The position numbers and the translations under genes are program-made. 64,000 nt of DNA from Promethearchaeota archaeon (GTDB taxonomy: Archaea > Asgardarchaeota > Hermodarchaeia > Hermodarchaeales > Hermodarchaeaceae). The stretch spans positions 1 through 64,000 of the forward strand of contig JBHLPH010000005.1 in NCBI GenBank assembly GCA_048939625.1, in the 5' to 3' direction. Numbering within the stretch: the stretch's first letter is position 1; each line of letters begins with the position of its first letter. Below the pieces are notes generated by a model. That model saw only the letters and a program-made list of their open reading frames with translations, was not told where the DNA came from and did not search any database. Of this stretch, positions 28,966 through 44,100 are shown in pieces.

Positions 28966-30378
28966 ATGGCGAAACGTGCAGGACCGATGGACATCTATCC
29001 ACTACTTCCCCAAACCAATTGTGGAGAATGTGGTGAAGCGAATTGCATGGCCTTTGCAACCAAAGCTGCTGAATATACACTTGGTATCAAAGCATGCACC
29101 CCATTGTATCGGGAACGCGAATACGCAGAAAAACGTGACAAACTTGAAGAACTCATGCGACCACCAGTGAAGGAAGTTCAAATTGGATCAGGAGAGAACA
29201 AGGTCCTGATTGGCGGAGAACTTGTTCTTTATCGTCACGACCTGCGTTACATGCATCCGACTGCGTTCTTTGTTGACATAGCAGATACAGCCTCAGCTGA
29301 TGAGATGAAAAAGCGTGTTAAAGCCATTGAAGAATGGACATATTTGTATATAGGAATGAATCTCCGCTTGGATGGAATTGCCCTTCGATCGGTTTCTGGT
29401 GAGCCAAAGAAATTTGCTGAAGCAGCCAAACGTCTTGGTGAACTTACCAACTGGCCAATTATGCTATGTTCATTGAATCCGAAGGTTTTAGCCGCAGGCG
29501 CAGAACCTCTTCAGGGGCGGCATCCACTCTTATACGCAGCCACCAAAGACACGTGGCAGGAACTCGGTGAAATCGCTCTGAAGTATCAATGCCCGTTAGT
29601 CGCCTATGCACCGGGCGAATTATCTGAGCTGAAATCCATCGCTTCAACACTAGCCCAGATGGGCGTTGATGTTGTTCTCGATCCGGGTAATGAATTTGGA
29701 GCGGCATTAGGTGCAACGATTGATGATTTTACAATGCTCCGACGTGCAGCCACTCGTGAAAATGACCAAGGGGTTGGATTTCCGCTACTCGCTTCCCCCA
29801 TCTCGGTTTGGGGCGATTACAAAGAAGGGGAAGCAGAAGAATTGGCAAAATGGCAAGAAACACTTGCTGGAGCCTCGATGATAATCCGATACGCAGATAT
29901 CATAGTGGTGCACAGTCTCGATATGTGGGTCCAATTACCCCTAACATTTCTCCGCACAAACCTGTACACCGATCCAGTGAAGCCCGTTGCTGTTGAACCA
30001 GGACTTCGTGAGTTCGGGAATCCGGATGAAAATTCACCGGTCATGTACACATCCAATTTTGCCCTTACTTATTTCACGGTAGAGAGTGACATCAAACAAG
30101 CGGGGATCGATGCGTATCTCGTCGTGGTTGATACTGAAGGACTTAGCATCCAATCCGCGGTTGCAGGTCGAAAATTAACAGCGGATGTGATAGCTGAAGC
30201 CATCAAAGAATCAGGTGTCGAAAAGAAAGTTAAGCATCGCATCCTGATTAGCCCAGGAATGGCAGCGCGGCTTAGTGGTGAAACCGAAGAAGCCTCTAAA
30301 TGGACAGTCAAGGTAGGTCCGAAGGATTCCAGTGGTATCAGTCAATACATTGGCGAAGAAGTCTGGAAAAAAGAATAA
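28966..30378 (+). CDS. cdhE: Acetyl-CoA decarbonylase/synthase gamma subunit (corrinoid Fe-S protein large subunit)
   Basis: LPQTNCGECGEANCMAFA..C, IGGELVLYRH, LYTDP.KP..V, SPV..TSNFALTYFTV..D, W.V.VGP. Confidence 0.93.
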   Translation: MAKRAGPMDIYPLLPQTNCGECGEANCMAFATKAAEYTLGIKACTPLYREREYAEKRDKLEELMRPPVKEVQIGSGENKVLIGGELVLYRHDLRYMHPTAFFVDIADTASADEMKKRVKAIEEWTYLYIGMNLRLDGIALRSVSGEPKKFAEAAKRLGELTNWPIMLCSLNPKVLAAGAEPLQGRHPLLYAATKDTWQELGEIALKYQCPLVAYAPGELSELKSIASTLAQMGVDVVLDPGNEFGAALGATIDDFTMLRRAATRENDQGVGFPLLASPISVWGDYKEGEAEELAKWQETLAGASMIIRYADIIVVHSLDMWVQLPLTFLRTNLYTDPVKPVAVEPGLREFGNPDENSPVMYTSNFALTYFTVESDIKQAGIDAYLVVVDTEGLSIQSAVAGRKLTADVIAEAIKESGVEKKVKHRILISPGMAARLSGETEEASKWTVKVGPKDSSGISQYIGEEVWKKE

Positions 30379-30495: not shown

Positions 30496-30656
30496 CTGGA
30501 ACATGTACACCATTTCGAACACCGAAAGAGAGACCCATCTTCATATCGTCGGGTCGCTAGACGTTGGCTTCTCCTTGGAATCATTTTTACAAGATCTATG
30601 ATGGCTGTTGAATTGATTGGTGGAATACTTACTGGAAGTCTCGCGTTGATCGGAGA
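30496..30656 (+). pseudogene. 5' fragment of a cation diffusion facilitator (CzcD/ZitB-like)
   Basis: EHVHHFEHR...RRWLLLGIIF..MMAVELIGGILTGSLALIG matches CDF TM1-TM2; similarity stops at about 30656. Confidence 0.7.
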
Positions 30657-30835
30657 ACAGGAAAGTAGTGGTATTCGAGTCCAGGTTCAATAACAGGTTC
30701 TTCATTGAGCGAGTCTTCCATAGCAGATACCAATATTTTGATTCCTTCTTTGGCAAGGTATTTGAGGTCTTCCCGACTACGTGGAAAACTTGAACCTGCG
30801 AGGATGCCAGGTATCAAGTAGGTGAAAGTAGGCAT
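30629..30835 (-). pseudogene. 5' fragment of a dual-specificity (CDC14/PTP-like) protein phosphatase
   Basis: LAGSSFP...DL.YL..EGI..LVS...GLEYHYFPV, then runs into the antisense of the CDF fragment; no HCxxGxxR motif. Confidence 0.7.
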
Positions 30836-30850
30836 GAAAGATTCATCTGT

Positions 30851-31753
30851 TTAGTTCGTGGTTTTTCGACTTACGAGGAATTCCGAGATTCCGTAACCAT
30901 AACTTGGATCTCCTTTGAGGGTGAATTGGGAGACGATTTCGTAGATGTTGGTTTCATATCCGGGTTTAGCTTGGCGGGGAGGATAGACCATGGTTTGGAG
31001 TTTGGTGGAATCAAGCTGCCATTTTTTCTTTCCCTCATCGGTAAAGAAGACTGTGAACCCTTGGGGAGTTAGACCATTAGACTCGAAGTGATCGGTGAAC
31101 TTGATGTCGGTTAGATGTTGGTTTCCGATAAGACTTGACAAGAATCCTGCAGTTTCGTATTTCTTCCCAATATGTAGTTTGATGAGGTTAATGGTACACC
31201 ATGAAAATTGAGCGGCAATCCAGTTCCATTCATCGATGGCCGCATAATCACGGAGTCCCCAAGAGTGGTCGCGGTGACCGAAGCAACTGAGTTGGTATTC
31301 TTTGCCATTTGCGAGCCGGATGACTCCATCTACAAAACAACCTTGTTCATAATGTTCCTGTTCGATGACCCCTTTTTTAAAGGCCTGCTTTGAATCGTAG
31401 GCAAAGGGATCGAACCGTCCTGTAAATTCAAGATTTGCGACCCGTTTTCCATCATCGAAGGTGATTTTCCAGAGTTCATGAGGTTGAAGCAGTTCGAAGG
31501 CGAGCTTACCATCGCTAAGGACATCGAGTTTTCCGGATATCGGGAGCGTGTTAAGGTAAATATCAGTTTCACCATCTACTAGGAAGGCAACCAGATAGTC
31601 GCGTTTGGGGACATTGGGGTAAGCAGAGATGTAGAAGAAAGCTGCAAGTTTGACTTTTGGATCATAGAGTTGGAAGTAATAGGATTCTTTCCAATCAGGC
31701 GCAGTAGTAGGGTCATGGAACTGTTCGTTTGAGGGTTCTATGTCATAGACCAT
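30851..31753 (-). CDS. AttH/CrtC/tocopherol-cyclase-fold protein
   Basis: WKESYYF, HYEQ, GHRDHSWG.RD, W.W motifs. Confidence 0.65.
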   Translation of the reverse strand: MVYDIEPSNEQFHDPTTAPDWKESYYFQLYDPKVKLAAFFYISAYPNVPKRDYLVAFLVDGETDIYLNTLPISGKLDVLSDGKLAFELLQPHELWKITFDDGKRVANLEFTGRFDPFAYDSKQAFKKGVIEQEHYEQGCFVDGVIRLANGKEYQLSCFGHRDHSWGLRDYAAIDEWNWIAAQFSWCTINLIKLHIGKKYETAGFLSSLIGNQHLTDIKFTDHFESNGLTPQGFTVFFTDEGKKKWQLDSTKLQTMVYPPRQAKPGYETNIYEIVSQFTLKGDPSYGYGISEFLVSRKTTN

Positions 31754-31768
31754 AGTGGGTTGCTCCGA

Positions 31769-32935
31769 TTAGTCGAGGAGTTCGTAGAAGGAGGGATCTT
31801 TATCACATTCGTCTTTACTGCGGAAAAGTCGGGCCCAAGCGGGGTGGCCCATGGAGTTTAGCATGAGTTGAATGTAGTCACCGACAGTGTCTTCATCGAG
31901 ACCCATTGTGATTTTGTCAGTGATGTTTCCCATATCAGTAAAAATGTAGAACCATTTCAGGAATACGGAAGAACCCGCTTTGAGCCGCTTCACATCATCC
32001 CATTCGGCGAATTCAAGATACAGTTCGGTTTGCACATCGGTGGCAAATTTTTCTAAATCGCTGAGAATCGAAAAAGAAGTCGTTTCGATTTTATCTCCAT
32101 AACGGCTAAACAATGCAAATTGGGTAATATGGTCGGAGTAGTCCTCTGGTTTAGGAAATAGAGTAGCAAAGTCTGTGAAAATGAGTTCCTCCATATCCTT
32201 TACAACCAAAGCAACTGATAGATTGGGGATTGGAGATTTAGCTTGTGTGTCGTGCCATTCCCAAATAAGTCGTGAGCCATCGTAGAGGGGGGAAAATTCC
32301 CGAAAAATAAGGTATTCATTGTCTCCAAAAGCATATGGACCCATTTCGTGGATGCTAGCCCGACATTCACAATACGAGAGAAATTCAGCTAAATAGAGCT
32401 GAGCCATTGTTCGTTTCAGCTTCGCTCTTTGATCAGTGTCAATGGGTTGTAGTTCTTGTTTGACCATATCAAGGACATTGTCGGGAAGCACACATGCCGT
32501 ATCTTTGTTTTCCGCGGCAAGAGGTTTGTCACTGTCGTAGTAGCTTGTTGCCATGCGATACCAAAAATCAATCATGAACTTGGCTTGTTTACGCCGTTCA
32601 GGTAATTCGTTTTTAGCTCCGCCAGCATCGAAAAGGTCTTGCATCCGGCCAAGTCCCCAGAGTCCGATAAATGCCCAGACTCCAAGGATATTTGGATAAG
32701 CAGCCAAAGTGCGGCAGCGCTTTCCAATCTCTTCGGGAGAGATATGGTTTGCGAGTTTTTTGAACATATTAAATTGGTAGTCGCGGTAAATCTGGGCACA
32801 TGCTACACTATTATATGCTGTGACTGGAAAAAGTTTGGATTCAAGGGCTGTGCGTTGGGAGAGTAAGTAGGTGCTGGCATCACTTGCCCGGCGGAGGAGT
32901 GTGTTCGCTTCTTGGGTGCTGATATCACCTATCAT
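31769..32935 (-). CDS. Hypothetical soluble protein, candidate substrate-binding subunit of the split dikinase
   Basis: Long ORF co-oriented with the dikinase parts; RTALESKLFPV and CECRASIHEMGPY segments; no family recognised. Confidence 0.6.
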   Translation of the reverse strand: MIGDISTQEANTLLRRASDASTYLLSQRTALESKLFPVTAYNSVACAQIYRDYQFNMFKKLANHISPEEIGKRCRTLAAYPNILGVWAFIGLWGLGRMQDLFDAGGAKNELPERRKQAKFMIDFWYRMATSYYDSDKPLAAENKDTACVLPDNVLDMVKQELQPIDTDQRAKLKRTMAQLYLAEFLSYCECRASIHEMGPYAFGDNEYLIFREFSPLYDGSRLIWEWHDTQAKSPIPNLSVALVVKDMEELIFTDFATLFPKPEDYSDHITQFALFSRYGDKIETTSFSILSDLEKFATDVQTELYLEFAEWDDVKRLKAGSSVFLKWFYIFTDMGNITDKITMGLDEDTVGDYIQLMLNSMGHPAWARLFRSKDECDKDPSFYELLD

Positions 32936-33005
32936 GGCATCTCAACTCATGGAAAATAGGATGCCTGGATGTTGCATTTAAGGATTCTAGTGCGACCAGC
33001 ATTAG

Positions 33006-36000
33006 CTAAAGCCGTTCATCGAGTTCGCGAAGTTGTTCCAGCATTTTCAGGCGGTCCGTAATATCACGGCAAATACCTCGGAATCCAAGAAGTTCGCTAG
33101 ACTCATTGAAAATTGGGCGACCACGGGCTTCAAGAACCACATCGGATTCGTCTCTGTGGACCATCTGGATGACGATTGTACGAATTGGTCGTCGTCTTTC
33201 TTTGAGTTCAGCCCATGTATTTTGTGCTCGTTTCACATCTTCAGGACGTAGGAAGTCGCAGGGGGTTCGTCCAAGCACTTGTCCTGCAGAAAATCCGATG
33301 ATGTCTTCGACAGCATTATTCGTGTAGACGAATTTCCCAGAAATATCCATTTCCCAAACCCAGTCTGAAAGGTCTTCAACAAGCGCTCGGTATCGTTCCT
33401 CTGATTCTTTTAGTGCAGCTTCCGCTTCTTTTCTTTCGGTGATATCTATATAAGCTGCTTGAACAGCTGGTTCGCCTTGGTACTCGATTCGATGAGCAAA
33501 AATTTCCACCCACACAATGGTCCCATCTTTTTTCATCAATCGATACTCGTATTGATTCGGAACGTCTTTGCCCATCAATCTGTTTTCAGCGCGGTTAATT
33601 ACTAACTCACGGTCTGCGGGATGAATTAATTCTTGGATTTTCCTTGGTGTCATTGCAAGGAGTTCCTCGATAGTGTAGCCAAGCATATCTGAGAAGGCTT
33701 CGTTGGCAAAGAAAAAGCGGAGAGGAGGACCCCGGGAGATTAGAATTCCAAAGAGGGATTGTTCTACAAGGGTGCGGTATTTTTCTTCGGATTCTTTGAT
33801 TGCTTGGTCAGCTCGGATGCGTTCTGTCACATCTGTGAGTGTTACCTGGATTGCTGGTTTTCCTTGGTAATCGATTATTTTCACCCAGATTTCTACCCAC
33901 TGAATAGTTCCTTCAATTGACATCACACGTATTTCATATCGATCTTGTACCTTCTTTCCTGCAAAGCGATCCTGCATACGTTGTTGTATCCATGTAACAT
34001 CTTCTGGATGAACACGATCCCAAAACGCGTTGGGTGGCATATCTAAGAGTTCATCTTGGGTGATATCGACCACCTCTTTCATTTGTGGGTTAGCAAACAC
34101 AATATGATCGTCTTGAATGATAAGTATCCCTTGGAGGGATTGATCGACTAAGGCGCGATATTTAGCCTCTGATTCTTTCAATGCAGTTTCGCTATGTTTA
34201 CGATCCGTGATGTCCTCCAGTGTTCCTTCATAACACTCAATTTTACCGCTCTTATCACGAATAGCTCGTGCAGAAAGGTTGACCCAGATTGTTGTTCCAT
34301 CTTCCCGTTTGAATTCAGCTTCGATTCCTGTCACAACATCTTCAAGGGCTACGGCAGCTTCCCAGTGTTTCCGTTCTTCAGGATCAAGATAGAAGCTCGA
34401 GGCCTTTCGTTTTAAAAGTGGTTCTTTGGTATCAAAGCCTAACATTTCAGTTAAGGCGGGATTAGCATCCAGGATGGTGCCATCGGGAGTTGTTCGGAAT
34501 AATCCAACTGGAACGCTATCGAAAAGGTGACGATATCGGGCTTCAGCTTCCTTCCGTTCACTGATGTCTCGAATGACTCCAAGAAACGCGGATGCTTTGC
34601 CTTCTGCATCTTTGAGAAGGGTAGCATTGAGTTCAGCAGGATAAGTGGTTCCATCTTTTCGCAATAAGTGATATTCAAGTGTCCCTGACGTTCCCTCTTC
34701 CAAGGTTTTTTCCATGTTTTTCATGGCGATTGGTATGTCATCTGGAGAAATCAACTCGAAGGCGTTCACACCGATTAAATCGGCTTCTGTTTTAACACCA
34801 TACAATTGGAGCGCCTGTTGATTAACCATTGTGATTTTGCCTTCAAGATTCGTTACCGTGATAGCATCTGGTGATGTTTCAACTAGGGTTCGATATTTTT
34901 CCTCGCTTTCCTTTAAAGCGATTTCAGCTTGTTTTCTTTCAGAAATATCTCTTGCTGCACTTTGTATATGAAGGGGCGTGCCATCAGCATCAGTGACTAA
35001 AGCTGCATTGATTTCAACTGGGAACTCATCACCGGTTTTTTTCCTAAAAACCCTTTCATAAACAGGTACAAGATCGCCGGCAAGTAAAGCGCGTAACACC
35101 CGTTTACTGTCCTCATATTCGCCTTCTGCTACGATATTATTAACTGGCAGTCCAATGAGTTCATCCAAAGTATAGCCAAGCATCTCTGCGGCTCGTTGAT
35201 TAGCTTCAAGAGTCTTCATATCAAGTGAGATGATAAATACTGCATCGTGAGTGTGCTCAAAAAGCGCACGATACCTGCGTTCTCTTTCTTTAAGGGCTTG
35301 TTCGGCTTGAATTCTTTCAGTGATATCCTCGAGAGAGCCTTCATAATATTGAATGGCACCGGATTCGTCTTTCTTAGCTCGGAAACTGTCATGAACCCAG
35401 ATGCGTTTACCATCTAGCCGTTTGAATTGTACATCATGGCCAGTAATGATATCTTCAGTCCCAAGTTTTGCTTCATATTGTACGCGTTCCTGCCGGTCGA
35501 CATAGAAATCAGAGGCGTTCATTTTCAGCAGGGTTTCCTTATCCTTTGCTCCAAGAAGCTCAATAAGGGCGGGATTCGCATCAATGATATCTCCTTCTAT
35601 AGTTGTACGGTAGAGTCCAATGGGAAGTTCATCGAATAGACCTCGATATCGGGCTTCGGATTCTTGGAGTTTGATATCAGCTTCTTGCCGTTCAGTGATG
35701 TCAAGAAAGGTTGCTTGAACAGCTGGCTTTCCATTATATTCGGTAACAGATACAAACATTTCAAGCCAGCGTTCTTCTCCACCCTTTTTGATTGCTTTAA
35801 ACTGATAATGAGAAGGAACAGATTTACCTTTAAGACGATCACGCATTCGACCCCAAACACGAGCTTGATAATCAGGGTGAACTCTGGCTTGAACTTCTTC
35901 TGGGGATAGGGATAGGATTTCATCAATTGTATAGCCACTAATGTCAGCAAAAGCTTGATTTGAAAAGACGACCTGCATGTCTTGAATGATGATGAGCCCT

Positions 36001-36437
36001 TGGAGTGAGTGGTCAACAAGGTCTTGGTAGGCTTGAGCAACCTGTTTTTGATCGGTTATCTCTGACACCATTGCTAGAATCGCTGGTTTTTCATTTATTG
36101 TTATGGCCTTTGGGAGTACCTGCAACCATTGTTCTTCCCCTTTCTTGTCTTTGATGCGAATATCGTAAAATTTGGTCTTGATTTCTCCTCCCTCAACAGA
36201 TTTCAATCTGCGACCCGCTTCTAGTTTATCTGCATCTGCAACAAATTGAAGGAAGTCATCAGATGTCATTTTATGGAGATCTTGAAGGGAGTAATCGATG
36301 AGTTTAGCCAATTCGCTGTTGGCAAATAGGACTTTGTCTTCTTGAAAGACGATTATGCCAATAGGTGATTTTGTGGCTATTTCCTCATAGATTTTTAAAT
36401 TAGAGTTTGTGGTTGAAGAGGGCTCATCCGAGGGCAT
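33006..36437 (-). CDS. Protein of nine tandem PAS/PAC domains with no output domain
   Basis: Nine units of Y..L.E/D...N...DITERK-type; stop follows about 12 aa after the last DITDR. Confidence 0.88.
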   Translation of the reverse strand: MPSDEPSSTTNSNLKIYEEIATKSPIGIIVFQEDKVLFANSELAKLIDYSLQDLHKMTSDDFLQFVADADKLEAGRRLKSVEGGEIKTKFYDIRIKDKKGEEQWLQVLPKAITINEKPAILAMVSEITDQKQVAQAYQDLVDHSLQGLIIIQDMQVVFSNQAFADISGYTIDEILSLSPEEVQARVHPDYQARVWGRMRDRLKGKSVPSHYQFKAIKKGGEERWLEMFVSVTEYNGKPAVQATFLDITERQEADIKLQESEARYRGLFDELPIGLYRTTIEGDIIDANPALIELLGAKDKETLLKMNASDFYVDRQERVQYEAKLGTEDIITGHDVQFKRLDGKRIWVHDSFRAKKDESGAIQYYEGSLEDITERIQAEQALKERERRYRALFEHTHDAVFIISLDMKTLEANQRAAEMLGYTLDELIGLPVNNIVAEGEYEDSKRVLRALLAGDLVPVYERVFRKKTGDEFPVEINAALVTDADGTPLHIQSAARDISERKQAEIALKESEEKYRTLVETSPDAITVTNLEGKITMVNQQALQLYGVKTEADLIGVNAFELISPDDIPIAMKNMEKTLEEGTSGTLEYHLLRKDGTTYPAELNATLLKDAEGKASAFLGVIRDISERKEAEARYRHLFDSVPVGLFRTTPDGTILDANPALTEMLGFDTKEPLLKRKASSFYLDPEERKHWEAAVALEDVVTGIEAEFKREDGTTIWVNLSARAIRDKSGKIECYEGTLEDITDRKHSETALKESEAKYRALVDQSLQGILIIQDDHIVFANPQMKEVVDITQDELLDMPPNAFWDRVHPEDVTWIQQRMQDRFAGKKVQDRYEIRVMSIEGTIQWVEIWVKIIDYQGKPAIQVTLTDVTERIRADQAIKESEEKYRTLVEQSLFGILISRGPPLRFFFANEAFSDMLGYTIEELLAMTPRKIQELIHPADRELVINRAENRLMGKDVPNQYEYRLMKKDGTIVWVEIFAHRIEYQGEPAVQAAYIDITERKEAEAALKESEERYRALVEDLSDWVWEMDISGKFVYTNNAVEDIIGFSAGQVLGRTPCDFLRPEDVKRAQNTWAELKERRRPIRTIVIQMVHRDESDVVLEARGRPIFNESSELLGFRGICRDITDRLKMLEQLRELDERL

Positions 36438-36620
36438 TTACTTTCACCACTTATGAGCTTGGTGTAGAAAGTAGCAAGGTTTCGTAGATCTTTCGTTCCC
36501 CAAGCTTCGCTGAAGCCTGACGATACTCTATTGAAGATGCCATATATCTGCTTCGCTGATGTGAAATGTTGATGATTGATATTGAGATGGACTAAACAAT
36601 AGAAAATCAATTAACTGATG

Positions 36621-37625
36621 TCAAATTGTCGTGATTGGTCGGGTTTGGAGAATCACAAATTGATCCTTCTGAAGTGTCCATTCGATGTCTTGTGGATGTC
36701 CCATATGTTCTTCGATTTGCATACCAAGTCTAGCCAAACTAATAATTTCAGAATCCGTGAGGGAGAAGATTTTACGTTGCTTCTTAGGAGTTTCGATCAA
36801 CATTGTGCCTTGGGGGTGATCTCTAGGGTAGGGAGTACAGAGGAGGGCTTTTTCCCCGAGTTGGCGTTTGAGTATTTTCAAAGGGGTTTTTTGGAGAAGA
36901 AAAGAGTCGGGAATGACTTTTCCAGAAACGATGCTTTCTCCTATTCCCCATGTTGAGTCAATCATAAGTTGTTCGGAGTCATTGGTTGCAACATTTGCAG
37001 TGAACATTACACCAGAAATATCACCGATAATCATTTCTTGGACTATTACAGCCATTTGCATTTGATCGATTTTTATCCCCTTAGCTTGAAGATATAGAAG
37101 TGCCCTAGGAGAGTAAAGAGAGAGCCAAGTCATTTTCACTGCTTTAATAATACTAGGTAAGTCATGTACACAGAGAAAGGAATCAGCTTGGCCTGCGAAG
37201 GAGAAGTGTTCGCTATCTTCTGCGGTTGCTGAAGACCGAATTGCAAACCCAGTTGAGGATGGCTCGTGATGGGTGCGAAGAGAGCTAAATCCTCTACTGA
37301 TTTCCTTTTCAACTGGTTTGGGAATATCGTATTCGCTAGCAATTTTTCTGAAGGTTTCTGCTGAATGTAAAAGTTCTTCGAAGTTATTTTGCTCGAGTTG
37401 CAGCTTCTTATAAGATTCAAGATGTTTGCATTCTGAGATAAATGCGATAAAGCCCTTTATTGGAATTACAAACCCGCGTGGTATTGGAATTCCATTTTGG
37501 TGAAGTCGGGCAAGGTTAGTAGCTTTTCCACCATAAAGAGAAGGTTGATTGCTGGGAAGCTGATGCAAGAAGGAGATCTGGTAGCCAGATTGCTGATTAA
37601 GTTTCTTTGGATGATATTCCACCAA
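36621..37625 (-). CDS. Stand-alone ATP-grasp (nucleotide-binding) domain of the PEP synthase/PPDK family
   Basis: GGKATNL, AIRSSATAED..SFAGQ, MAVIVQEM, SGVMFT, GIGESIVSG, DIEW, LQTRPIT-stop. Confidence 0.88.
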   Translation of the reverse strand: MVEYHPKKLNQQSGYQISFLHQLPSNQPSLYGGKATNLARLHQNGIPIPRGFVIPIKGFIAFISECKHLESYKKLQLEQNNFEELLHSAETFRKIASEYDIPKPVEKEISRGFSSLRTHHEPSSTGFAIRSSATAEDSEHFSFAGQADSFLCVHDLPSIIKAVKMTWLSLYSPRALLYLQAKGIKIDQMQMAVIVQEMIIGDISGVMFTANVATNDSEQLMIDSTWGIGESIVSGKVIPDSFLLQKTPLKILKRQLGEKALLCTPYPRDHPQGTMLIETPKKQRKIFSLTDSEIISLARLGMQIEEHMGHPQDIEWTLQKDQFVILQTRPITTI

Positions 37626-37653
37626 GATACCCTCCTTAAGTAACTAAAATACC

Positions 37654-38049
37654 TCAGGATTCGGTTTCCGTGATTAGTAATAATAATCCAATCGTTCCGT
37701 TACTGGGCTCGATTCGAACCATTTGATTATTCAGATTACCATCAAAATTAATTTTTGTACCCATAAGTGCAGGAATTCCAAATTCCCGTGTCACTATAGC
37801 AAGATGAGATCCCAAAGCCCCTGATGTGCAAATAACTCCTTTTAATCGAGAGAGTACAGGAGCTAATGTGGTTGTTCCCGCATCTTCTACGAGCACAATC
37901 TTATCGCTGGTTACTCCAGAAGATTCCTCAGCTTTGAATTCTTTGAGTAATGAAAGAACATCTTCTATTGAACTAATTACTCGAAGTACGCCTTGAGCTG
38001 ATTTCTGAAGAGTTAAAAGCCCTTCTCCAATTTGCTTCATAGTTACCAC
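37654..38049 (-). CDS. Stand-alone phospho-histidine (PEP-utiliser mobile/swivel) domain
   Basis: GVICTSGALGSHLAIVTREFGIPALMG signature. Confidence 0.88.
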   Translation of the reverse strand: MVTMKQIGEGLLTLQKSAQGVLRVISSIEDVLSLLKEFKAEESSGVTSDKIVLVEDAGTTTLAPVLSRLKGVICTSGALGSHLAIVTREFGIPALMGTKINFDGNLNNQMVRIEPSNGTIGLLLLITETES

Positions 38050-38144: not shown

Positions 38145-41100
38145 TTATGATTCGCTTGAATCAAAATCAACTTTCTTCTTTCGCTTTTGGAGTTTGGGTT
38201 TTAGTACAGGCTCTTCAAGCTGTAAACCTTTCATTCGAGCCATCAGTTTCTTTATTGTTGCTTCTCGTTCTTCAGGAGTCATGATTATCAATTGTTGGAC
38301 TAATGCATCTTTGTCATCATCACTTATTACAGAGAACTGTTCAAGTCCTTCGCGGAGTACGGCAACCAATGATGCTTGTTCGACAGGACTTAACTGGCGT
38401 TCCTCAGATGTTTTCACAGGCAGATCTTCAGCTTCAGCTTTAACGTCACCCGTCTTGAGATAATCAAAGCGACCTTCCGCCATTTGCCGTTTCATATCTT
38501 CCATGAACCAAACTCGATCTTTCGCTGGAATCTTTTTCATCTGTTCAAAGAGCTGCTCTTTTTGCTTCTCGCCAAGACCTTCAAGGTGTTCAAGTTCGAT
38601 TAAAATTGCATCATCTTCTGACCTTCGCTCTATAGGAAGTTCAGCCAGAGGGAGAACTATTGGTTGAATTTCAAGACTCGTTGCTTCATAAGAAGGTGTC
38701 ATAATTGTAATCAATTGATTGTCACGGTCTTGAATTCGATGTATATCGCCTTTTGAAAGAGAAGGAGTGTGTCCACGGTCAATTGATTTACTCATCTTCC
38801 GCATTTTTCGGACAATCCAAGGAATTGAGTAAACCCTAGCATAAGCAAGCCAAATGAGTAGAGCAATGATTAAAACGACACCAATAATTGCTCCAGCTTG
38901 AATCGCGCTTCTCGCTACGGGACTTAGACTCACAATGAGAGTAGCCGATCTTTGTGATTGGGCATATTTCGGTGCCGCAGCTGACTCGATTGTAATTGGA
39001 GATGTTCCTTCAATTAATGCAGATAAACCAGATAGCGTATAGGTTCCATCTCCATTATTTACCATTGGTCGTAACTCTAGACCAAGGCTGGGAATAGTCA
39101 CATAAAGCGTTGCATCAGAGATGATGATGTTATGATAAGTATCTCTAAACGTTACATGGAGGGTGAAGGTATCACCTGTAAAGATGGTTATTGTATCTGG
39201 TAATCCTGTGATTTCAGTAGGTACTTGTATTACATTTAATTGGAAATAGGGAGCAGTGGCGGTTTCGAAGTTATGACGAGAGAGTGATATGGAAATTCCG
39301 TACAACCCTGGAGTTACGTCTGTGAGATTGATTTGGGCTACATAGAGTTCATCGATAAATTGTAGCCTACCACTACCCAATTCCCAAGAATAAGAACCCG
39401 TAGCATTGAAAATTATATTTCCATCAGCATCTGTAAAATTGAAATAAAGCCATAGCATATCCCCACGCGGAACATCCCAAGCTGTTCCATCTAGTGGGAT
39501 GATAATTTCCGCGTCATCTAATTCGGTATAAATTTCCTCAATAATCAATGTTGTTTGACGAGGTTGGATGTTTAATCCAATTGATGTGATTGCGAATTGA
39601 TACCCTTCATGATCACAGCTGAGGGTCAGTTGGTACACACCGACGGCAAAAATATCACTTGGAAGAGAGGTATTATACCAACCAGAGATGCCTGTTGGTT
39701 GTAGTGTCCCAGAAAGATTACCCCAGTTATAATGGATTGTTGCTCCTATTATTGGCTGTAGATTATTGTCATAGAATTCAGCAAGCACGGTGAAACTATC
39801 ACCCCATTCTACAAGGATGACAGGTGTATCTGATTCAAGGTAAGCAGGCATCACAATAAGAGCAACTGAAACGGTACGGAGTTGTTCGATAACGTTTGGA
39901 TGACTTGCAGTGATATAGATTGTATATTGGCCTGCATCTAGCCCTGAAGAGTTGATTATTACGCGAAAAGTAAATCCACTCACATAAGGTATAGTCGCAT
40001 TTCCTCCAGCCCAATTAAAGTAGACCGTCGCATTTGGTAATGCAGCACCATAAATGGTGCTGAAATTAGCAGATACTTGGAAAGAGTCACCTGCCACGAT
40101 TGCTGAAGCGGGTCCTTGCACAGTTAGAGTAGAATCAATTGGGAGAATATTTAGTAAAATGATTCCAATGCTGGTTTGATAATTAGGAAGATTACTCGCT
40201 TCAATTGTTACGAGATATGTCCCAACACTCTGATTGGCAAGGAAAGAAATATTGTATATTCCACTCCCCATAAAAACCAAATTCTCCGGATTAAGTCCTG
40301 CCCAATAGTAAGTAACCTGTGTATTGTTCATTAAACGGTCATATATGTCAGTGACACGAACTGAGATATTTACCGCAGTTTGGTATTCAGTGGTCCACGG
40401 TGAACTAGAAAGCACTTCTACATGAAGTAGTAATGGATTAATGGTGAATTGAACATGTTGCTCAGCCGTATCATAGTAAGAGAGAGAATACCGTATTGTG
40501 AAATTCGCTAGACCGATATCCTCTGCAGAACTGTTAATTTGTAGTAAGTATGTGCCATCTGAAAAATTTTGAACAATTGACCAAGATGGCCAGCTCAACC
40601 ATACCATTACTGACCCACCATACAATACGACGTCATTGTCGATATCGTGGTATGTCGCATTGAGGTAGAATAAATCGCCCCAATATACGAAGCTATCGAA
40701 ATCTAATTCGAGCGTTGTTTGGATTGATCGGACATACCCACTAATTGGAAGAGAATGGTTTTGGTAATAGGGTACAACGTTAGACCATGTTACATTGACT
40801 AGGAATCGATACCAGGCGTTTACCTCGATGAAATTATGAGTGCGAATGGTTATGAGATATCCGTTTAGACCGTTATTGAGCATCGTGAGTGTGAAATTCA
40901 AACTTACTGCTGGATGCGAAGTACAGGCGAGTGTAATGTGAACATACCCGGAGACGTTATGAATTGCAGCGCTGGTTTCACTGTCATTGTAAAATATAAT
41001 GAAAGTGAGGTTCTCGAGATAGGGAACAGGCTGTGGAGGAGCGAACGAGACGTAGGTGTTCCTACCCCGTAAATTGAATTGAACAGAAATCTGTTGTGAT

Positions 41101-44100
41101 TCAAAATGGAGGGCATTCAAAGTAATTAGAATTGTATATGAGCCTGCATCTCGATTGGTGGTGTTCAGTTCAACGATATATGTTCCGTTTTGATAATCAA
41201 AAATCGTGTAATAACCAGAATCCCAATCTGCGGTGATAAAAGCCCCAAGAACATATCCTCCATGATCAGTATCAAGGTAATCTATAGTGATACTGAGATT
41301 TACTCCCCAAGGATGTGAAGAGACATATAATGGATCAGCAGCATTATCTGTTTGAATGTCTCGAAGAGTGATTCTAACTTGGAGGTTTTGACTTGCGTAA
41401 TGCAACCAGGTTAGGGTGACTTGAGTTATATACAGACCATTTCCCCGGCAAGTAGTATTGAATTGGATGAGATATGTTCCATTACCAAAAGAGAAGATGG
41501 AGTAATAACTAGCGTTCCAATTAGTCGAAATCAATGCATTTGTGACATATCCCCCGTGATCAAGATCGAGATAATTGATTCGAACCGTGACATTATCACC
41601 CCAAGGATGCGAAGGAAAGACAGTGCTGTCAGCCTCAAAGTCGGTTTGGATATTGCGGAGAATAAGATCAACTTGGAGATTCTGGCTAATATAATGAATC
41701 AAAGAAACGTTGATGTCAATTGAATGACTTCCTACATCACGACAGGTAGTATTTATTTGAACAAGATAAGTGCCATTCTCAAGATCATAGATAGTGTAGT
41801 AGCCAGCATCCCAATTTAGAGCTAACAAAGCGCCTGAGATGTAAGTTCCGTGATCAAAATCAATGTATTCGATTTTTATTGTAACATTGTCCCCCCATGG
41901 ATTTGAGGGAATGTATGCTGGATTAACAGTGTATCCTGTTTGGATATTGCGTAATGTGAGATCAACTTCAACCAGTTGACTAACATAATGCAATTTATCC
42001 AAAATAATTTCAATGGAGTGTGTACCAGTTATGCGACAAGTCGTGTTCAGTTCAATCAAGTAGGTTCCATTACCGAGATTATAGATGGTGTAATAGCTTG
42101 CATTCCAATCTACGGTAATTAGTGCGTTTAGCACAAAACTACTGTGATCTTGATCCAAATATTCAATGCGGATGGTGACGTTATCTCCCCACGGATGAGA
42201 CCAGAAATAAGCAGGATCCACGCTTATGTCCGTTAGGATATTCCTAAGGGTCAAATCAATTTCCACTACTTGTGCAACATAATGACTTCGACTGAGCATA
42301 ATCTGGATAACATGAACTCCAATTTCACGGCAGGTTGTGTTGATTACTAAAAGATAGGTTCCGTTGCCAAGCCAGTAGATGGTGTGAAAGCTTGCATTCC
42401 AATTCGTGTCAACCTCAGCGAAGGGAATGTATACTCCATGATCTAAATCTAGGTAATGGACACGAATTGTGAGGTTATCACCCCAAGGCTGTGATGGAAT
42501 GAATAAGGGGTCAGCTTGATAATTGGTCTGAATACTTCGACTAACGAAGCTTTGGAGTGTCATGAAAGTCTGATAATGGGCTTTGCTTGCATAGATGTGG
42601 AGCGTATAGCTTCCTTCCAGTCGACTTTCAGTACGAATAGTAAGAATGTATACGCCTGATGAAGGATTGTAGAGATAACCCCAATAAAACGCGTCCCAAT
42701 CACATGTGAAGGTAGCATCAGGAATTGGATTAAAGTTATCATCGGTATCATTGAAGGTTAGTGTAATTACGAGAGTGTCACCCCAAGGTACGGAGGTGCC
42801 AGGATCAACAGATGTTATGTAAAGGGCTGTTAATCGGTCTCGAACCTGGAATGAAATCGATACTTGGGCAGTATCATAATGAGTTTTTGCAAAGCCAAAA
42901 TTAATCGAATAACTCTGAGATCCAGTGGCAACTTTACTTGTGTTGAGAGTGATTGTATAGGTTCCGTTGCCATAATCATAAATCCAGTAATCCACACCCA
43001 GAATATTATCGAGCCAACTAAATTCGATTGAAGCAGCACTTATTCCGATAAATCCATGATCCGTATCATTGAAAACTAATACAATTGTAACATTTTCTCC
43101 CCAAGGTACTGAACCAGACACAGCGGAGCCAGATGCGAAGGTTTTGATTGGGCGGATTGTTATTTCGAAGTATTGATTCTGAGTTGTATAGTTAGTTCGG
43201 CTGAAGTACACCGTGACATAGAAAGTGGCCTCTGTAACATTACCCCAGAAGTTTATTGCATATGTTCCATTGAGAAAGTTTTGGATTGAATACTTACCCG
43301 ATGCATAACCCTCAACTATTACGGTTGCATCTGTGATGAAGATGGGAGTTCCTGTAACGATATCCGTGAAGTTGAAAACGACTACAAAGTCATCATCATA
43401 AGGAATTTCCGCGGTAGATCGGGGATGGTCTTTCGTCAACTGAGTAACTCGAGACTCAACGATAATTCGAATTTTGATGGTTTGAGCTGCATGCGCGCTT
43501 CGAGTAGCGTTCACATAAAGATCTGTTTGCCCTAAGCCCACAGTGGTCGAGTTGAGAATATAGTAATAGTAGCCATTCGTTGTCTCAGTGAGTGGGATTA
43601 AACTGGTGCCAATGAGAATCTGTACATTTGCCCCAGTAACACCAGTTGATGTACTTTCATTGATGTATCGGACAGTGATATTGAATAATTCATTCCAGTA
43701 GACATGCGCTGTGTAAACGTCCGTATCATTATCGAACTGAGTCCAACCGTCACTCGTTCCTGAAGGAGGATAATTAATCTGGGTTCTTTCGGCATCAAGA
43801 TTTGTAGCAAAAGAAACAATTCTAATGATTATAGTGAAGTTTTGCCATTCATACTCCCAGCTATAAGAACCGACAACACGCATAGTTACAACATATTTGA
43901 CTGCTTCAACATCTCCATATGACGAATCATACCAGATGAAGACTGTAGGGTCTACTCCATCGGGGACGAAATCTCCAGTTCCAATGAGGGTCCAGCTTGT
44001 CTCATCAGCAGGGTCTTCATAATAGGTGTAATTGACACGAACGTTATCCTTCCAAATTCCCGAGTCATTTCGAACATATGTACTAAAATATGGATCATAA

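What the first reader, a model, noticed from the sequence alone, without database searches (positions are those of the whole stretch)
30629..38049. Dismembered dikinase locus: free phospho-His domain, free ATP-grasp domain, PAS-only sensor, orphan, AttH-fold enzyme and phosphatase
Seen: six co-oriented minus-strand genes. The first two are the His-swivel domain (SHLAIVTREFGIP) and the ATP-grasp domain of PEP synthase/PPDK as separate proteins, and no PEP/pyruvate TIM barrel is encoded in the window. Known: rifampin phosphotransferase and phenylphosphate synthase reuse these two domains with a different substrate-binding module to phosphorylate non-pyruvate hydroxyls. Inference: this is a three-subunit dikinase-type phosphotransferase whose acceptor-binding subunit is the 388-aa orphan. 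It may act on a hydrophobic alcohol or phenol together with the CrtC/tocopherol-cyclase-fold enzyme. Alternatively it is a non-canonical ATP-grasp-to-His phosphorelay read or gated by the kinase-less PAS protein, with the now-broken phosphatase as eraser.
Basis: partly seen in the sequence, partly recalled or inferred. Interest (0 to 1): 0.85.

Follow-up and report, generated by a model that had tools for sequence, protein, structure and literature searches.

The report
Split kinase plus phosphate-eliminating lyase cassette
An Asgard archaeon carries a widely conserved but unstudied four-gene set that most likely removes an unreactive hydroxyl group by phosphorylating it through a phospho-histidine relay, one part of which matches no solved structure, and then expelling the phosphate with a relative of 25-phosphosteroid lyase.

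Summary
The six minus-strand genes are real and as described. Four form a conserved core:
- a free phospho-His swivel protein (131 aa);
- a free PPDK_N ATP-grasp (334 aa);
- the 388-aa "orphan";
- a DUF7065/DUF7064 protein (300 aa).

The "orphan" is not an orphan. Homologs occur in 113 of 400 Asgard genomes and in 344 protein clusters that include Bacteria. It nearly always lies directly beside the DUF7065 gene and usually next to the two dikinase parts. In some bacteria it is fused to the His domain.

Its confident model matches no solved fold. A complex prediction places the catalytic His against its most conserved arginines (score 0.83, best control 0.00).

The DUF7065 protein is a sequence and fold homolog of 25-phosphosteroid lyase.

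Best reading: a dikinase-type small-molecule kinase with a new acceptor subunit feeds a phosphate-eliminating lyase, giving ATP-driven dehydration. The substrate is unknown.

The PAS protein and the phosphatase occur only in this genus. The phosphatase is decayed in this window. The phosphorelay reading is not supported.

The genome has a complete separate PPDK, so this is not a broken PEP synthase.

The scan reached the same reading on other genomes (e1-5638274, e1-5655113). I saw those notes only after my own tests.

The parts
37654..38049 (-). Stand-alone phospho-histidine swivel carrier (131 aa), catalytic His82 in a GSH motif
   Evidence: PF00391, 41 bits. G80-S81-H82 is invariant in 13 homologs. 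It is the only free His domain in the genome.
36621..37625 (-). Stand-alone PPDK_N ATP-grasp subunit (334 aa), analogous to the beta subunits PpsB/CreI/HpeI
   Evidence: PF01326, 278 bits, full length. It is the only free PPDK_N in the genome. It is adjacent to the His gene in 14 of 20 sampled loci.
33006..36437 (-). Nine-PAS protein without an output domain. A lineage-specific insertion, not part of the conserved core.
   Evidence: Pfam and NCBIfam hit PAS repeats only. It sits between PPDK_N and the 388-aa gene in four congeners. It is absent at that place in G094 (L025) and in the clusters of all other genera sampled; in L040 a PAS gene lies a few kb away, outside the cluster.
31769..32935 (-). 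388-aa acceptor-subunit candidate. Member of an unnamed family that matches no solved fold. Conserved residues: R97, R192, G199, P200 (invariant); R28 and Y201 (at least 90%).
   Evidence: Homologs in 113 of 400 Asgard genomes and in 344 clusters. AF2 pLDDT 92. No Foldseek or VIA match. Fused to a His domain in bacteria. Complex with the His protein: ipSAE 0.83 against 0.00 for the best control.
30851..31753 (-). 25-phosphosteroid-lyase-like protein (DUF7065 + DUF7064, 300 aa) with an RDxSWGxR motif
   Evidence: Pfam. AF2 pLDDT 92. Foldseek top hits 9g4c, 9g2i and 9fzn, E 2e-15, TMq 0.79. Profile against the 25-PSL sequence, E 1.4e-8. It lies directly beside the 388-aa gene in 47 genomes compared.
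30629..30835 (-). Remnant of a Cys-based dual-specificity phosphatase gene. A genus-specific accessory gene, pseudogenised here; decayed sequence continues to about 30380.
   Evidence: Weak PTP-SAK hit. The intact 148-152 aa orthologs with CX5R in L021-L024 hit PTP-SAK and DSPc. The window copy shifts frame after about codon 61 and no frame keeps the motif.

Best explanation
The conserved core is a two-step machine.

Step 1 is a dikinase-type kinase built from three separate proteins. The ATP-grasp subunit (334 aa) uses ATP to phosphorylate His82 of the 131-aa swivel carrier. The carrier docks on the 388-aa protein and passes the phosphoryl group to a hydroxyl of a small, probably hydrophobic, substrate bound there. 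By analogy with PEP synthase and phenylphosphate synthase the overall reaction would be ATP to AMP + Pi + R-O-phosphate.

Step 2: the adjacent 25-phosphosteroid-lyase homolog eliminates the phosphate to leave a C=C bond. The net result is an ATP-driven dehydration of an otherwise unreactive alcohol.

Shown here:
- domain identities;
- the conserved four-gene neighbourhood;
- His-to-388 fusions;
- homology of the barrel protein to 25-PSL.

Predicted, not shown: docking of the His carrier on the 388-aa protein.

Inferred:
- the direction of phosphoryl flow;
- the AMP-forming stoichiometry;
- that the lyase takes the kinase's product;
- the substrate class (tertiary or otherwise poor-leaving hydroxyl, possibly isoprenoid-like).

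The PAS protein and the decayed phosphatase are genus-specific additions of unknown role.
For: 1. In 20 loci chosen only for carrying a homolog of the 388-aa gene, tblastn found the lyase in 19, the His protein in 17 and PPDK_N in 14. Gene orders varied, which argues for selection on the neighbourhood.
2. The phyletic tallies of the 388-aa gene and the lyase across 400 Asgard genomes match family by family. In 47 genomes compared, the two genes are neighbours on one strand.
3. The two have diverged as pairs. Pairwise identities correlate at r = 0.92. The genome's second pair on C9 groups with the same foreign subtype for both genes.
4. PEP-utilizers + 388-domain fusions exist in five representative proteins, including Gordonia and Citricoccus 'PEP-utilizing enzyme'.
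5. The lyase-388-His triad recurs in Rhodococcus and Methylibium plasmids.
6. Complex prediction for the His protein with the 388-aa protein gave ipSAE 0.83. The best of 3 controls was 0.00. This mark was reached by 58 of 80 solved complexes and 2 of 110 mismatched pairs. The runs agreed in at least 94% of contacts and the partner pLDDT was at least 89. The interface contains His82 together with R28 and R192 of the 388-aa protein. R192 is invariant and R28 at least 90% conserved across 31 diverse members.
7. Lyase homology rests on Foldseek (E 2e-15, TMq 0.79) to three 25-PSL entries and on a profile hit (E 1.4e-8) that includes the RDxSWGxR motif.
8. Precedents exist. Two-subunit dikinase-type kinases PpsAB, CreHI and HpeHI are known (PMC9618137). 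A kinase plus lyase performs ATP-dependent dehydration of a tertiary alcohol, whose phosphoester is as energy-rich as ATP (PMC8449060, PMC11061730).
Against: - No substrate is identified and no biochemical data exist for any family member.
- The 388-aa protein has no recognisable catalytic or ligand-binding motif beyond conserved Arg, Tyr and Gly-Pro residues.
- Its role as acceptor site, rather than adaptor or regulator, rests on context and a predicted complex.
- The AttH-like fold of the lyase also houses hydratases and pericyclases. Identity to 25-PSL is only 18-19%, so elimination chemistry is not assured.
- I could not read the 25-PSL structure paper to check catalytic residues.
- In Methylibium no PPDK_N lies within 8 kb.
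- The second 388/lyase pair in this genome has no dikinase parts beside it.
- Many other Asgard genera add two Fe-S proteins to the cluster. The model does not explain them.
Confidence: 0.6

Rival explanations
1. The three-protein kinase is as described, but the barrel protein is not a phosphate lyase. It would be a hydratase, cyclase or isomerase on the same pathway. Alternatively the phosphate ester is used for another purpose, such as activation for carboxylation or trapping in the cell, as in the Cre/Hpe phenol pathways.
For: The fold family includes AttH, kievitone hydratase and Diels-Alderases. Known dikinase-type kinases feed carboxylases and are followed by a phosphatase (PMC9618137). 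A phosphatase follows the barrel gene in this genus. Rhodococcus clusters hold biotin carboxylase genes.
Against: The profile search of all PDB sequences returned 25-PSL and no other member of the AttH-like fold, with the RDxSWGxR motif conserved. The phosphatase is genus-specific and decayed here. No carboxylase lies near the Asgard clusters.
Confidence: 0.2
2. The 388-aa protein is not the acceptor site. It would be an adaptor or regulator of the His carrier, or itself the phosphorylated end-point (a protein substrate).
For: It has no known fold or ligand motif. Binding to the His domain is all that the prediction and the fusions show directly.
Against: The family-wide conserved residues are arginines at the predicted His82 interface, as expected for a phosphoryl-transfer site. 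No other candidate acceptor domain is conserved in the cluster. The protein co-diverges tightly with the lyase. No conserved His, Asp, Ser or Thr stands out as a protein phospho-acceptor among the family-wide invariant residues.
Confidence: 0.1
3. One reading: a signalling phosphorelay from the ATP-grasp to His, read or gated by the PAS-only protein and erased by the phosphatase.
For: The PAS gene sits inside the cluster in five genomes of the genus: this window and four congeners. The phosphatase gene follows the cluster in those four congeners.
Against: Both are absent in congener G094 and in every other genus sampled, while the four core genes persist. There is no HisKA, HATPase or receiver domain. 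The phosphatase is a pseudogene here. The lyase partner points to small-molecule chemistry.
Confidence: 0.05
4. Remnants of an ordinary PEP synthase/PPDK split by mutation, completed by a barrel subunit encoded elsewhere.
For: The best NCBIfam matches of the ATP-grasp are PEP synthase models, though far below their cut-offs.
Against: The gene order is His before ATP-grasp. The split state is conserved across genera. The only PF02896 barrel is inside a complete 909-aa PPDK that has its own ATP-grasp and His domains.
Confidence: 0.02

Closest known systems
25-hydroxysteroid kinase (25-HSK) plus 25-phosphosteroid lyase (25-PSL) of Sterolibacterium denitrificans
   Same: The logic is the same two steps: phosphorylate an unreactive hydroxyl with ATP, then eliminate phosphate to form an alkene. 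The window's 300-aa protein is a sequence and fold homolog of 25-PSL.
   Different: The kinase there is a single APH-type phosphotransferase that forms ADP and is fully reversible (PMC8449060). Here it is a three-protein phospho-His dikinase-type system. No steroid-pathway genes lie nearby. Identity to 25-PSL is only 18-19%.
Two-subunit dikinase-type small-molecule kinases: phenylphosphate synthase PpsAB(C), CreHI, HpeHI, AcvAB
   Same: They have a free PPDK_N beta subunit and a swivel His domain that carries phosphate to a non-pyruvate hydroxyl (PMC9618137). A Rhodococcus CreH-type pair shows the same free ATP-grasp.
   Different: In those enzymes the His domain is the C-terminus of a ~600-aa alpha subunit. 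Its acceptor domain shows no relation to the 388-aa family (hhalign probability 0.2%; no NCBIfam hit). Here the His domain is free or N-terminally fused. Those pathways continue with carboxylases and phosphatases, not a lyase.
Rifampin phosphotransferase (RPH) and PigC/RedH (PRK06241 type)
   Same: They share the ATP-grasp and swivel His domains around a variable acceptor domain of about 400 residues. The window's ATP-grasp scores 230 bits on the RPH model over the ATP-grasp part only.
   Different: Those are single polypeptides ordered ATP-grasp, acceptor, His. Neither structure search of the PDB listed any rifampin phosphotransferase among its hits. They have no lyase partner.

Membership tests
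PEP-utilising / dikinase-type phosphotransferases | PPDK_N ATP-grasp nucleotide-binding domain | tested here: met
   PF01326, 278 bits against a cut-off of 27, profile positions 3-311 of 328.
PEP-utilising / dikinase-type phosphotransferases | Swivel domain with the catalytic histidine | tested here: met
   PF00391, 41 bits against a cut-off of 23. GSH is invariant in 13 homologs.
PEP synthase / PPDK proper | PEP/pyruvate-binding TIM barrel (PF02896) belonging to the same enzyme | tested here: not met
   The only PF02896 in the genome lies in a complete 909-aa PPDK on C29. The genome is 87.6% complete.
PpsA/CreH/HpeH-type alpha subunits | Acceptor domain homologous to the N-terminal ~500 residues of the alpha subunit, with a C-terminal His domain | tested here: not met
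   hhalign of the 388-aa family profile against a CreH-type protein (NF006153, 747 bits) gave probability 0.2%. No NCBIfam hit. The His domain is a separate gene.
RPH / PigC (PRK06241) type | Single chain with the acceptor domain between the ATP-grasp and the His domain, related to the rifampin-binding domain | tested here: inconclusive
   The genes are separate. No such chain was listed by Foldseek or VIA-align. By the tools' own rule this does not exclude a distant relation.
25-phosphosteroid lyase family (DUF7065 + DUF7064) | Sequence membership in both Pfam domains and homology to the solved 25-PSL | tested here: met
   DUF7065 at 56.4 bits (cut-off 27) and DUF7064 at 25.2 bits (cut-off 24.7). 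Profile against 9fzn/9g2i, E 1.4e-8, with RDxSWGxR aligned.
25-phosphosteroid lyase family (DUF7065 + DUF7064) | Same two-barrel fold over the full length | tested here: met
   Foldseek E 2e-15, TMq 0.79, about 337 aligned columns to 9g4c_B. The model has pLDDT 92.
25-phosphosteroid lyase family (DUF7065 + DUF7064) | Phosphate-eliminating C-O lyase activity | not testable with these tools
   Needs an enzyme assay. The paper on catalytic residues was not in the library.
His-Asp or His-kinase phosphorelay | HisKA/HATPase_c kinase core or a receiver domain | tested here: not met
   The PAS protein has PAS repeats only. No such domain occurs in any of the six genes.
Cys-based dual-specificity phosphatases | CX5R catalytic loop | tested here: not met
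   The window copy is truncated and frameshifted, and no frame keeps the motif. The orthologs in L021-L024 keep HCxxGxGRTG.

The most novel reading that the evidence does not exclude
Asgard archaea, and scattered bacteria, would use this cassette to dehydrate tertiary hydroxyls of isoprenoid- or sterol-like lipids without oxygen. The dikinase chemistry (two anhydride bonds spent) would make formation of an ATP-level tertiary phosphoester irreversible. The 388-aa protein would be a genuinely new phosphoryl-transfer fold. This would be an archaeal counterpart of the anoxic sterol side-chain pathway.
Probability: 0.15. Interest if true: 0.8.

Novelty: new variant of a known kind. Interest (0 to 1): 0.7.

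Why it matters
- It assigns a testable function to an unnamed protein family of at least 344 clusters. The family matches no solved fold and occurs in Asgard archaea, Actinobacteria and Proteobacteria.
- It extends the dikinase family to a third acceptor architecture.
- It suggests that kinase-plus-lyase dehydration, so far known from one anaerobic steroid pathway, is widespread and ancient.
- The cassette sits on catabolic megaplasmids of Rhodococcus and Methylibium. Its substrate may therefore be an environmentally relevant recalcitrant alcohol.

Tried and rejected
Tool availability:
Contexts came from the genome search, the fetch from genomes and the plasmid collection instead.

Searches on the 388-aa protein that found nothing:
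- A family profile against PDB sequences gave only chance hits.
- Foldseek against the PDB gave no hit with E <= 0.001.
- The first VIA wide search timed out. The rerun gave no Z >= 5.
- The ESM Atlas gave only a 0.76 lead to ChpXY, below the tool's own trust level, and I dropped it.
- PADLOC found no defence-system match for any gene.

Literature:
- Nothing was found on DUF7065/DUF7064 as such.
- The 25-PSL structure paper was not found.
- Nothing links phenylphosphate synthase to Asgard archaea in a useful way.

Other ideas tested and dropped:
- The C-terminal extensions of bacterial homologs are not lyase domains. They matched no A2 domain and are related only to each other.
- The PAS protein has no LOV motif.
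- The Fe-S protein seen in other genera's clusters has only one distant full-length homolog in this genome, on another contig. It is not part of this locus.


Full report
**Observation**

The window comes from an Asgard archaeon. Near-identical proteins carry Thorarchaeota and Hermodarchaeota labels. The genome is G000: 2.3 Mb, 87.6% complete, with the window on contig C58.

Pfam confirms most of them:
- a 131-aa protein that is only a PEP-utilizers swivel domain;
- a 334-aa protein that is only a PPDK_N ATP-grasp;
- a 1143-aa protein made of PAS repeats with no output domain;
- a 300-aa DUF7065 + DUF7064 protein;
- a 68-aa piece of a Cys-based phosphatase.

The 388-aa protein hits nothing in Pfam, NCBIfam or PADLOC.

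The phosphatase is intact in four congeners (148-152 aa, HCxxGxGRTG). In this window it shifts frame after about codon 61 and keeps the motif in no frame.

**Not a broken PEP synthase**

The genome has exactly one PEP/pyruvate barrel. It lies inside a complete 909-aa PPDK on contig C29 that has its own ATP-grasp and His domains. The free ATP-grasp and the free His domain of the window are the only free copies in the genome. Their order (His first) and their separation are conserved in other genera. The split state is therefore native.

**The 388-aa protein is not an orphan**

- A whole-genome search found homologs in 113 of 400 Asgard genomes, including a second copy in this genome on C9.
- A profile search of 1.8 billion representative proteins found 344 clusters at E <= 0.001. 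Several have bacterial members: Gordonia, Citricoccus and Burkholderia. tblastn with the Gordonia-type fusion also found homologs on Rhodococcus, Methylibium, Novosphingobium and Paraburkholderia plasmids.

I fetched 20 loci, chosen only for carrying a homolog on a long contig, and searched them with the window's proteins. The DUF7065 gene was present in 19, the His gene in 17 and the ATP-grasp in 14. Arrangements varied: co-linear in this genus, divergent (ATP-grasp and His on one strand, 388 and DUF7065 on the other) in most others.

Across the 400 genomes the per-family tallies for the 388-aa gene and the DUF7065 gene match. In the 47 genomes where I compared coordinates, the two genes are neighbours on the same strand: upstream in one, about 570 nt apart in another, under 100 nt apart in the rest.

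The two genes have also diverged as pairs. Pairwise identities correlate at r = 0.92 over 91 non-independent pairs. The genome's second pair on C9 groups with the same foreign subtype for both genes.

**Fusions**

Five representative proteins join an N-terminal PEP-utilizers domain to the 388-aa domain (P0056, P0072, P0119, P0145, P0167). Sources name them 'PEP-utilizing enzyme' or 'phosphohistidine swiveling domain-containing protein'.

Rhodococcus megaplasmids carry, in one cluster:
- two split His + 388 modules and one fused one;
- a DUF7065-like gene;
- a PPDK_N-His protein.

The Methylibium petroleiphilum PM1 plasmid carries DUF7065-like, 388-like and His genes in a row. The triad is therefore conserved across two domains of life.

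**What the 388-aa protein looks like**

With an 18-sequence alignment AlphaFold gives a confident model (pLDDT 92, pTM 0.91). It has an N-terminal helical bundle, a central sheet and C-terminal helices.

Three searches found no relative:
- Foldseek against the PDB gave no hit with E <= 0.001.
- An exhaustive VIA-align pass over 48,161 chains gave no Z of 5 or more.
- A profile search of PDB sequences gave only chance hits.

A profile-profile comparison with a genuine CreH/PpsA-type alpha subunit gave probability 0.2%. That subunit scores 747 bits on NF006153 and sits next to its own free PPDK_N. So the protein is not a recognisable relative of the known acceptor domains of split dikinase-type kinases.

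Across 31 diverse members the invariant residues are R97, R192, G199 and P200. R28 and Y201 are conserved in at least 90%.

**Docking**

A controlled complex prediction of the 388-aa protein with the His carrier gave ipSAE 0.83.
- The best of three controls scored 0.00.
- The mark was reached by 58 of 80 solved complexes and 2 of 110 mismatched pairs.
- The runs agreed in at least 94% of contacts, and the partner pLDDT was at least 89.

The interface includes the carrier's residues 76-82, with catalytic His82, and the 56-61 loop. On the 388-aa protein it includes residues 27-36 and 174-192, with R28 and R192.

This supports binding but does not show it. No similar complex is known to me, so a pass from memory seems unlikely.

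**The barrel protein**

Its model (pLDDT 92) matches three entries of 25-phosphosteroid lyase best: E 2e-15, TMq 0.79, 18-19% identity. Fungal Diels-Alderases, AttH and kievitone hydratase follow at E around 1e-10 to 1e-8.

A family profile searched against all PDB sequences found 25-PSL and no other member of the AttH-like fold (E 1.4e-8). The alignment covers the RDxSWGxR motif that is invariant in the Asgard proteins.

[quoted passage not shown] It follows an APH-type kinase whose tertiary phosphoester product has a group-transfer potential like that of ATP (PMC8449060, PMC11061730).

**Mechanism proposed**

1. The ATP-grasp phosphorylates the carrier's His82.
2. The carrier swings to the 388-aa protein and phosphorylates a bound hydroxyl.
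3. The lyase homolog expels phosphate to give an alkene.

The use of dikinase chemistry fits products with energy-rich phosphoesters (enol, aryl, tertiary). This is my inference from PEP synthase, phenylphosphate synthase and the 25-HSK thermodynamics.

The precedent for free ATP-grasp subunits and non-pyruvate acceptors is PpsAB/CreHI/HpeHI (PMC9618137). The substrate is unknown, and neighbours give no consistent clue:
- In this window the flanks are a CODH/ACS delta subunit, an NAD kinase, a PfkB kinase and a giant Ig-like surface protein.
- In other genera two Fe-S proteins join the cluster. B12-radical-SAM or HGD-D genes lie nearby in some.

**PAS and phosphatase**

The PAS gene lies between the ATP-grasp and the 388-aa gene in this window and four congeners. 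The phosphatase gene follows the lyase gene in those four congeners. Both are missing from congener G094, whose cluster is otherwise the same, and from the clusters of all other genera sampled.

They are therefore genus-level additions. The phosphatase has decayed in this genome. The phosphorelay reading has no support beyond position.

**Comparison and novelty**

The system works like 25-HSK/25-PSL, but its kinase is of the PpsAB/CreHI/RPH kind. Its acceptor subunit matches none of theirs and no solved fold. I class it as a new variant of a known kind.

Earlier follow-ups in this scan reached the same reading on a Lokiarchaeon and on another Asgard genome (e1-5655113, e1-5638274). I saw them after my own, so they agree with my result but are not independent evidence.

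New for this window:
- the genus-specific PAS insertion;
- the decayed phosphatase;
- the second 388/lyase pair on C9 that lacks its own dikinase parts;
- the co-divergence of the pairs.

**Limits**

- There is no biochemistry for any member of the family.
- The 25-PSL paper was not available.
- The genome is incomplete.

Noticed in passing
G000 contig C9:36123-38178 (locus L038:9406-11482): A second, paralogous 388-aa + DUF7065/DUF7064 pair lies in the same genome (31% and 27% identity to the window's pair). It has no His or ATP-grasp gene beside it. It groups with the subtype that in other genera carries its own dikinase parts. The single free His/ATP-grasp set in the window may serve both pairs.
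   Followed up: partly
L028:11698-12854, L029:6778-7943 and six further loci: In many other Asgard genera the cassette is joined by two Fe-S proteins. One is ~285 aa with a Cys-rich N-terminus and two 4Fe-4S motifs; the other is a ~92-aa ferredoxin. They are unexplained by the kinase-lyase model. This genome's only full-length homolog is on C61.
   Followed up: partly
L026:14576-19707; L039:11968-14407; L040:17220-19530: Three tandem B12-binding radical SAM genes lie next to the cassette in one genus. 2-hydroxyglutaryl-CoA-dehydratase D-component genes lie next to it in two others. These are possible hints of anaerobic radical chemistry on the same substrate.
   Followed up: no
L064 (Methylibium petroleiphilum PM1 plasmid RPME01, 480093-483884): A lyase-like, 388-like and His-carrier triad lies a few kb from genes for a B12-binding domain protein, an AMP-binding protein and MeaB. 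From memory, that is the 2-hydroxyisobutyryl-CoA mutase region of this MTBE/tert-butanol degrader, which handles tertiary alcohols. This may be coincidence.
   Followed up: no
L048 and L049 (Rhodococcus pyridinivorans pA, R. oxybenzonivorans pRB98): One catabolic cluster holds three His + 388 modules (two split, one fused). It also holds a DUF7065-like gene, a PPDK_N-His protein without a barrel, two AMP-binding ligases and biotin carboxylase/BCCP genes.
   Followed up: partly
P0071, P0081, P0117, P0119, P0145, P0167 (bacterial homologs): Bacterial members of the 388-aa family share an extra C-terminal helical extension of 200-350 aa. It ends in a conserved HTVW..LHEDLL..GR.R stretch and has no Pfam match.
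   Followed up: partly
window 38145-46229 (-): A 2694-aa ORF lies directly upstream and is co-oriented. It has only a weak Invasin_D3/Ig-like hit. It is present upstream of the cassette in two congeners (L022, L023) but replaced by a PfkB gene in others, so it is probably unrelated.
   Followed up: partly
window 28966-30378 (+): A CODH/ACS delta subunit gene (CdhD, 407 bits) converges on the decayed phosphatase gene. It is conserved at this place in the four congener loci that also carry the PAS gene (L021-L024).
   Followed up: no
G116:C1:3399417-3399821 and 1660678-1660998 (L052, L055): Another Asgard genome encodes 727-aa and 676-aa proteins with a C-terminal swivel His domain and unassigned N-terminal parts. 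These may be further dikinase-type enzymes with other acceptor domains.
   Followed up: no
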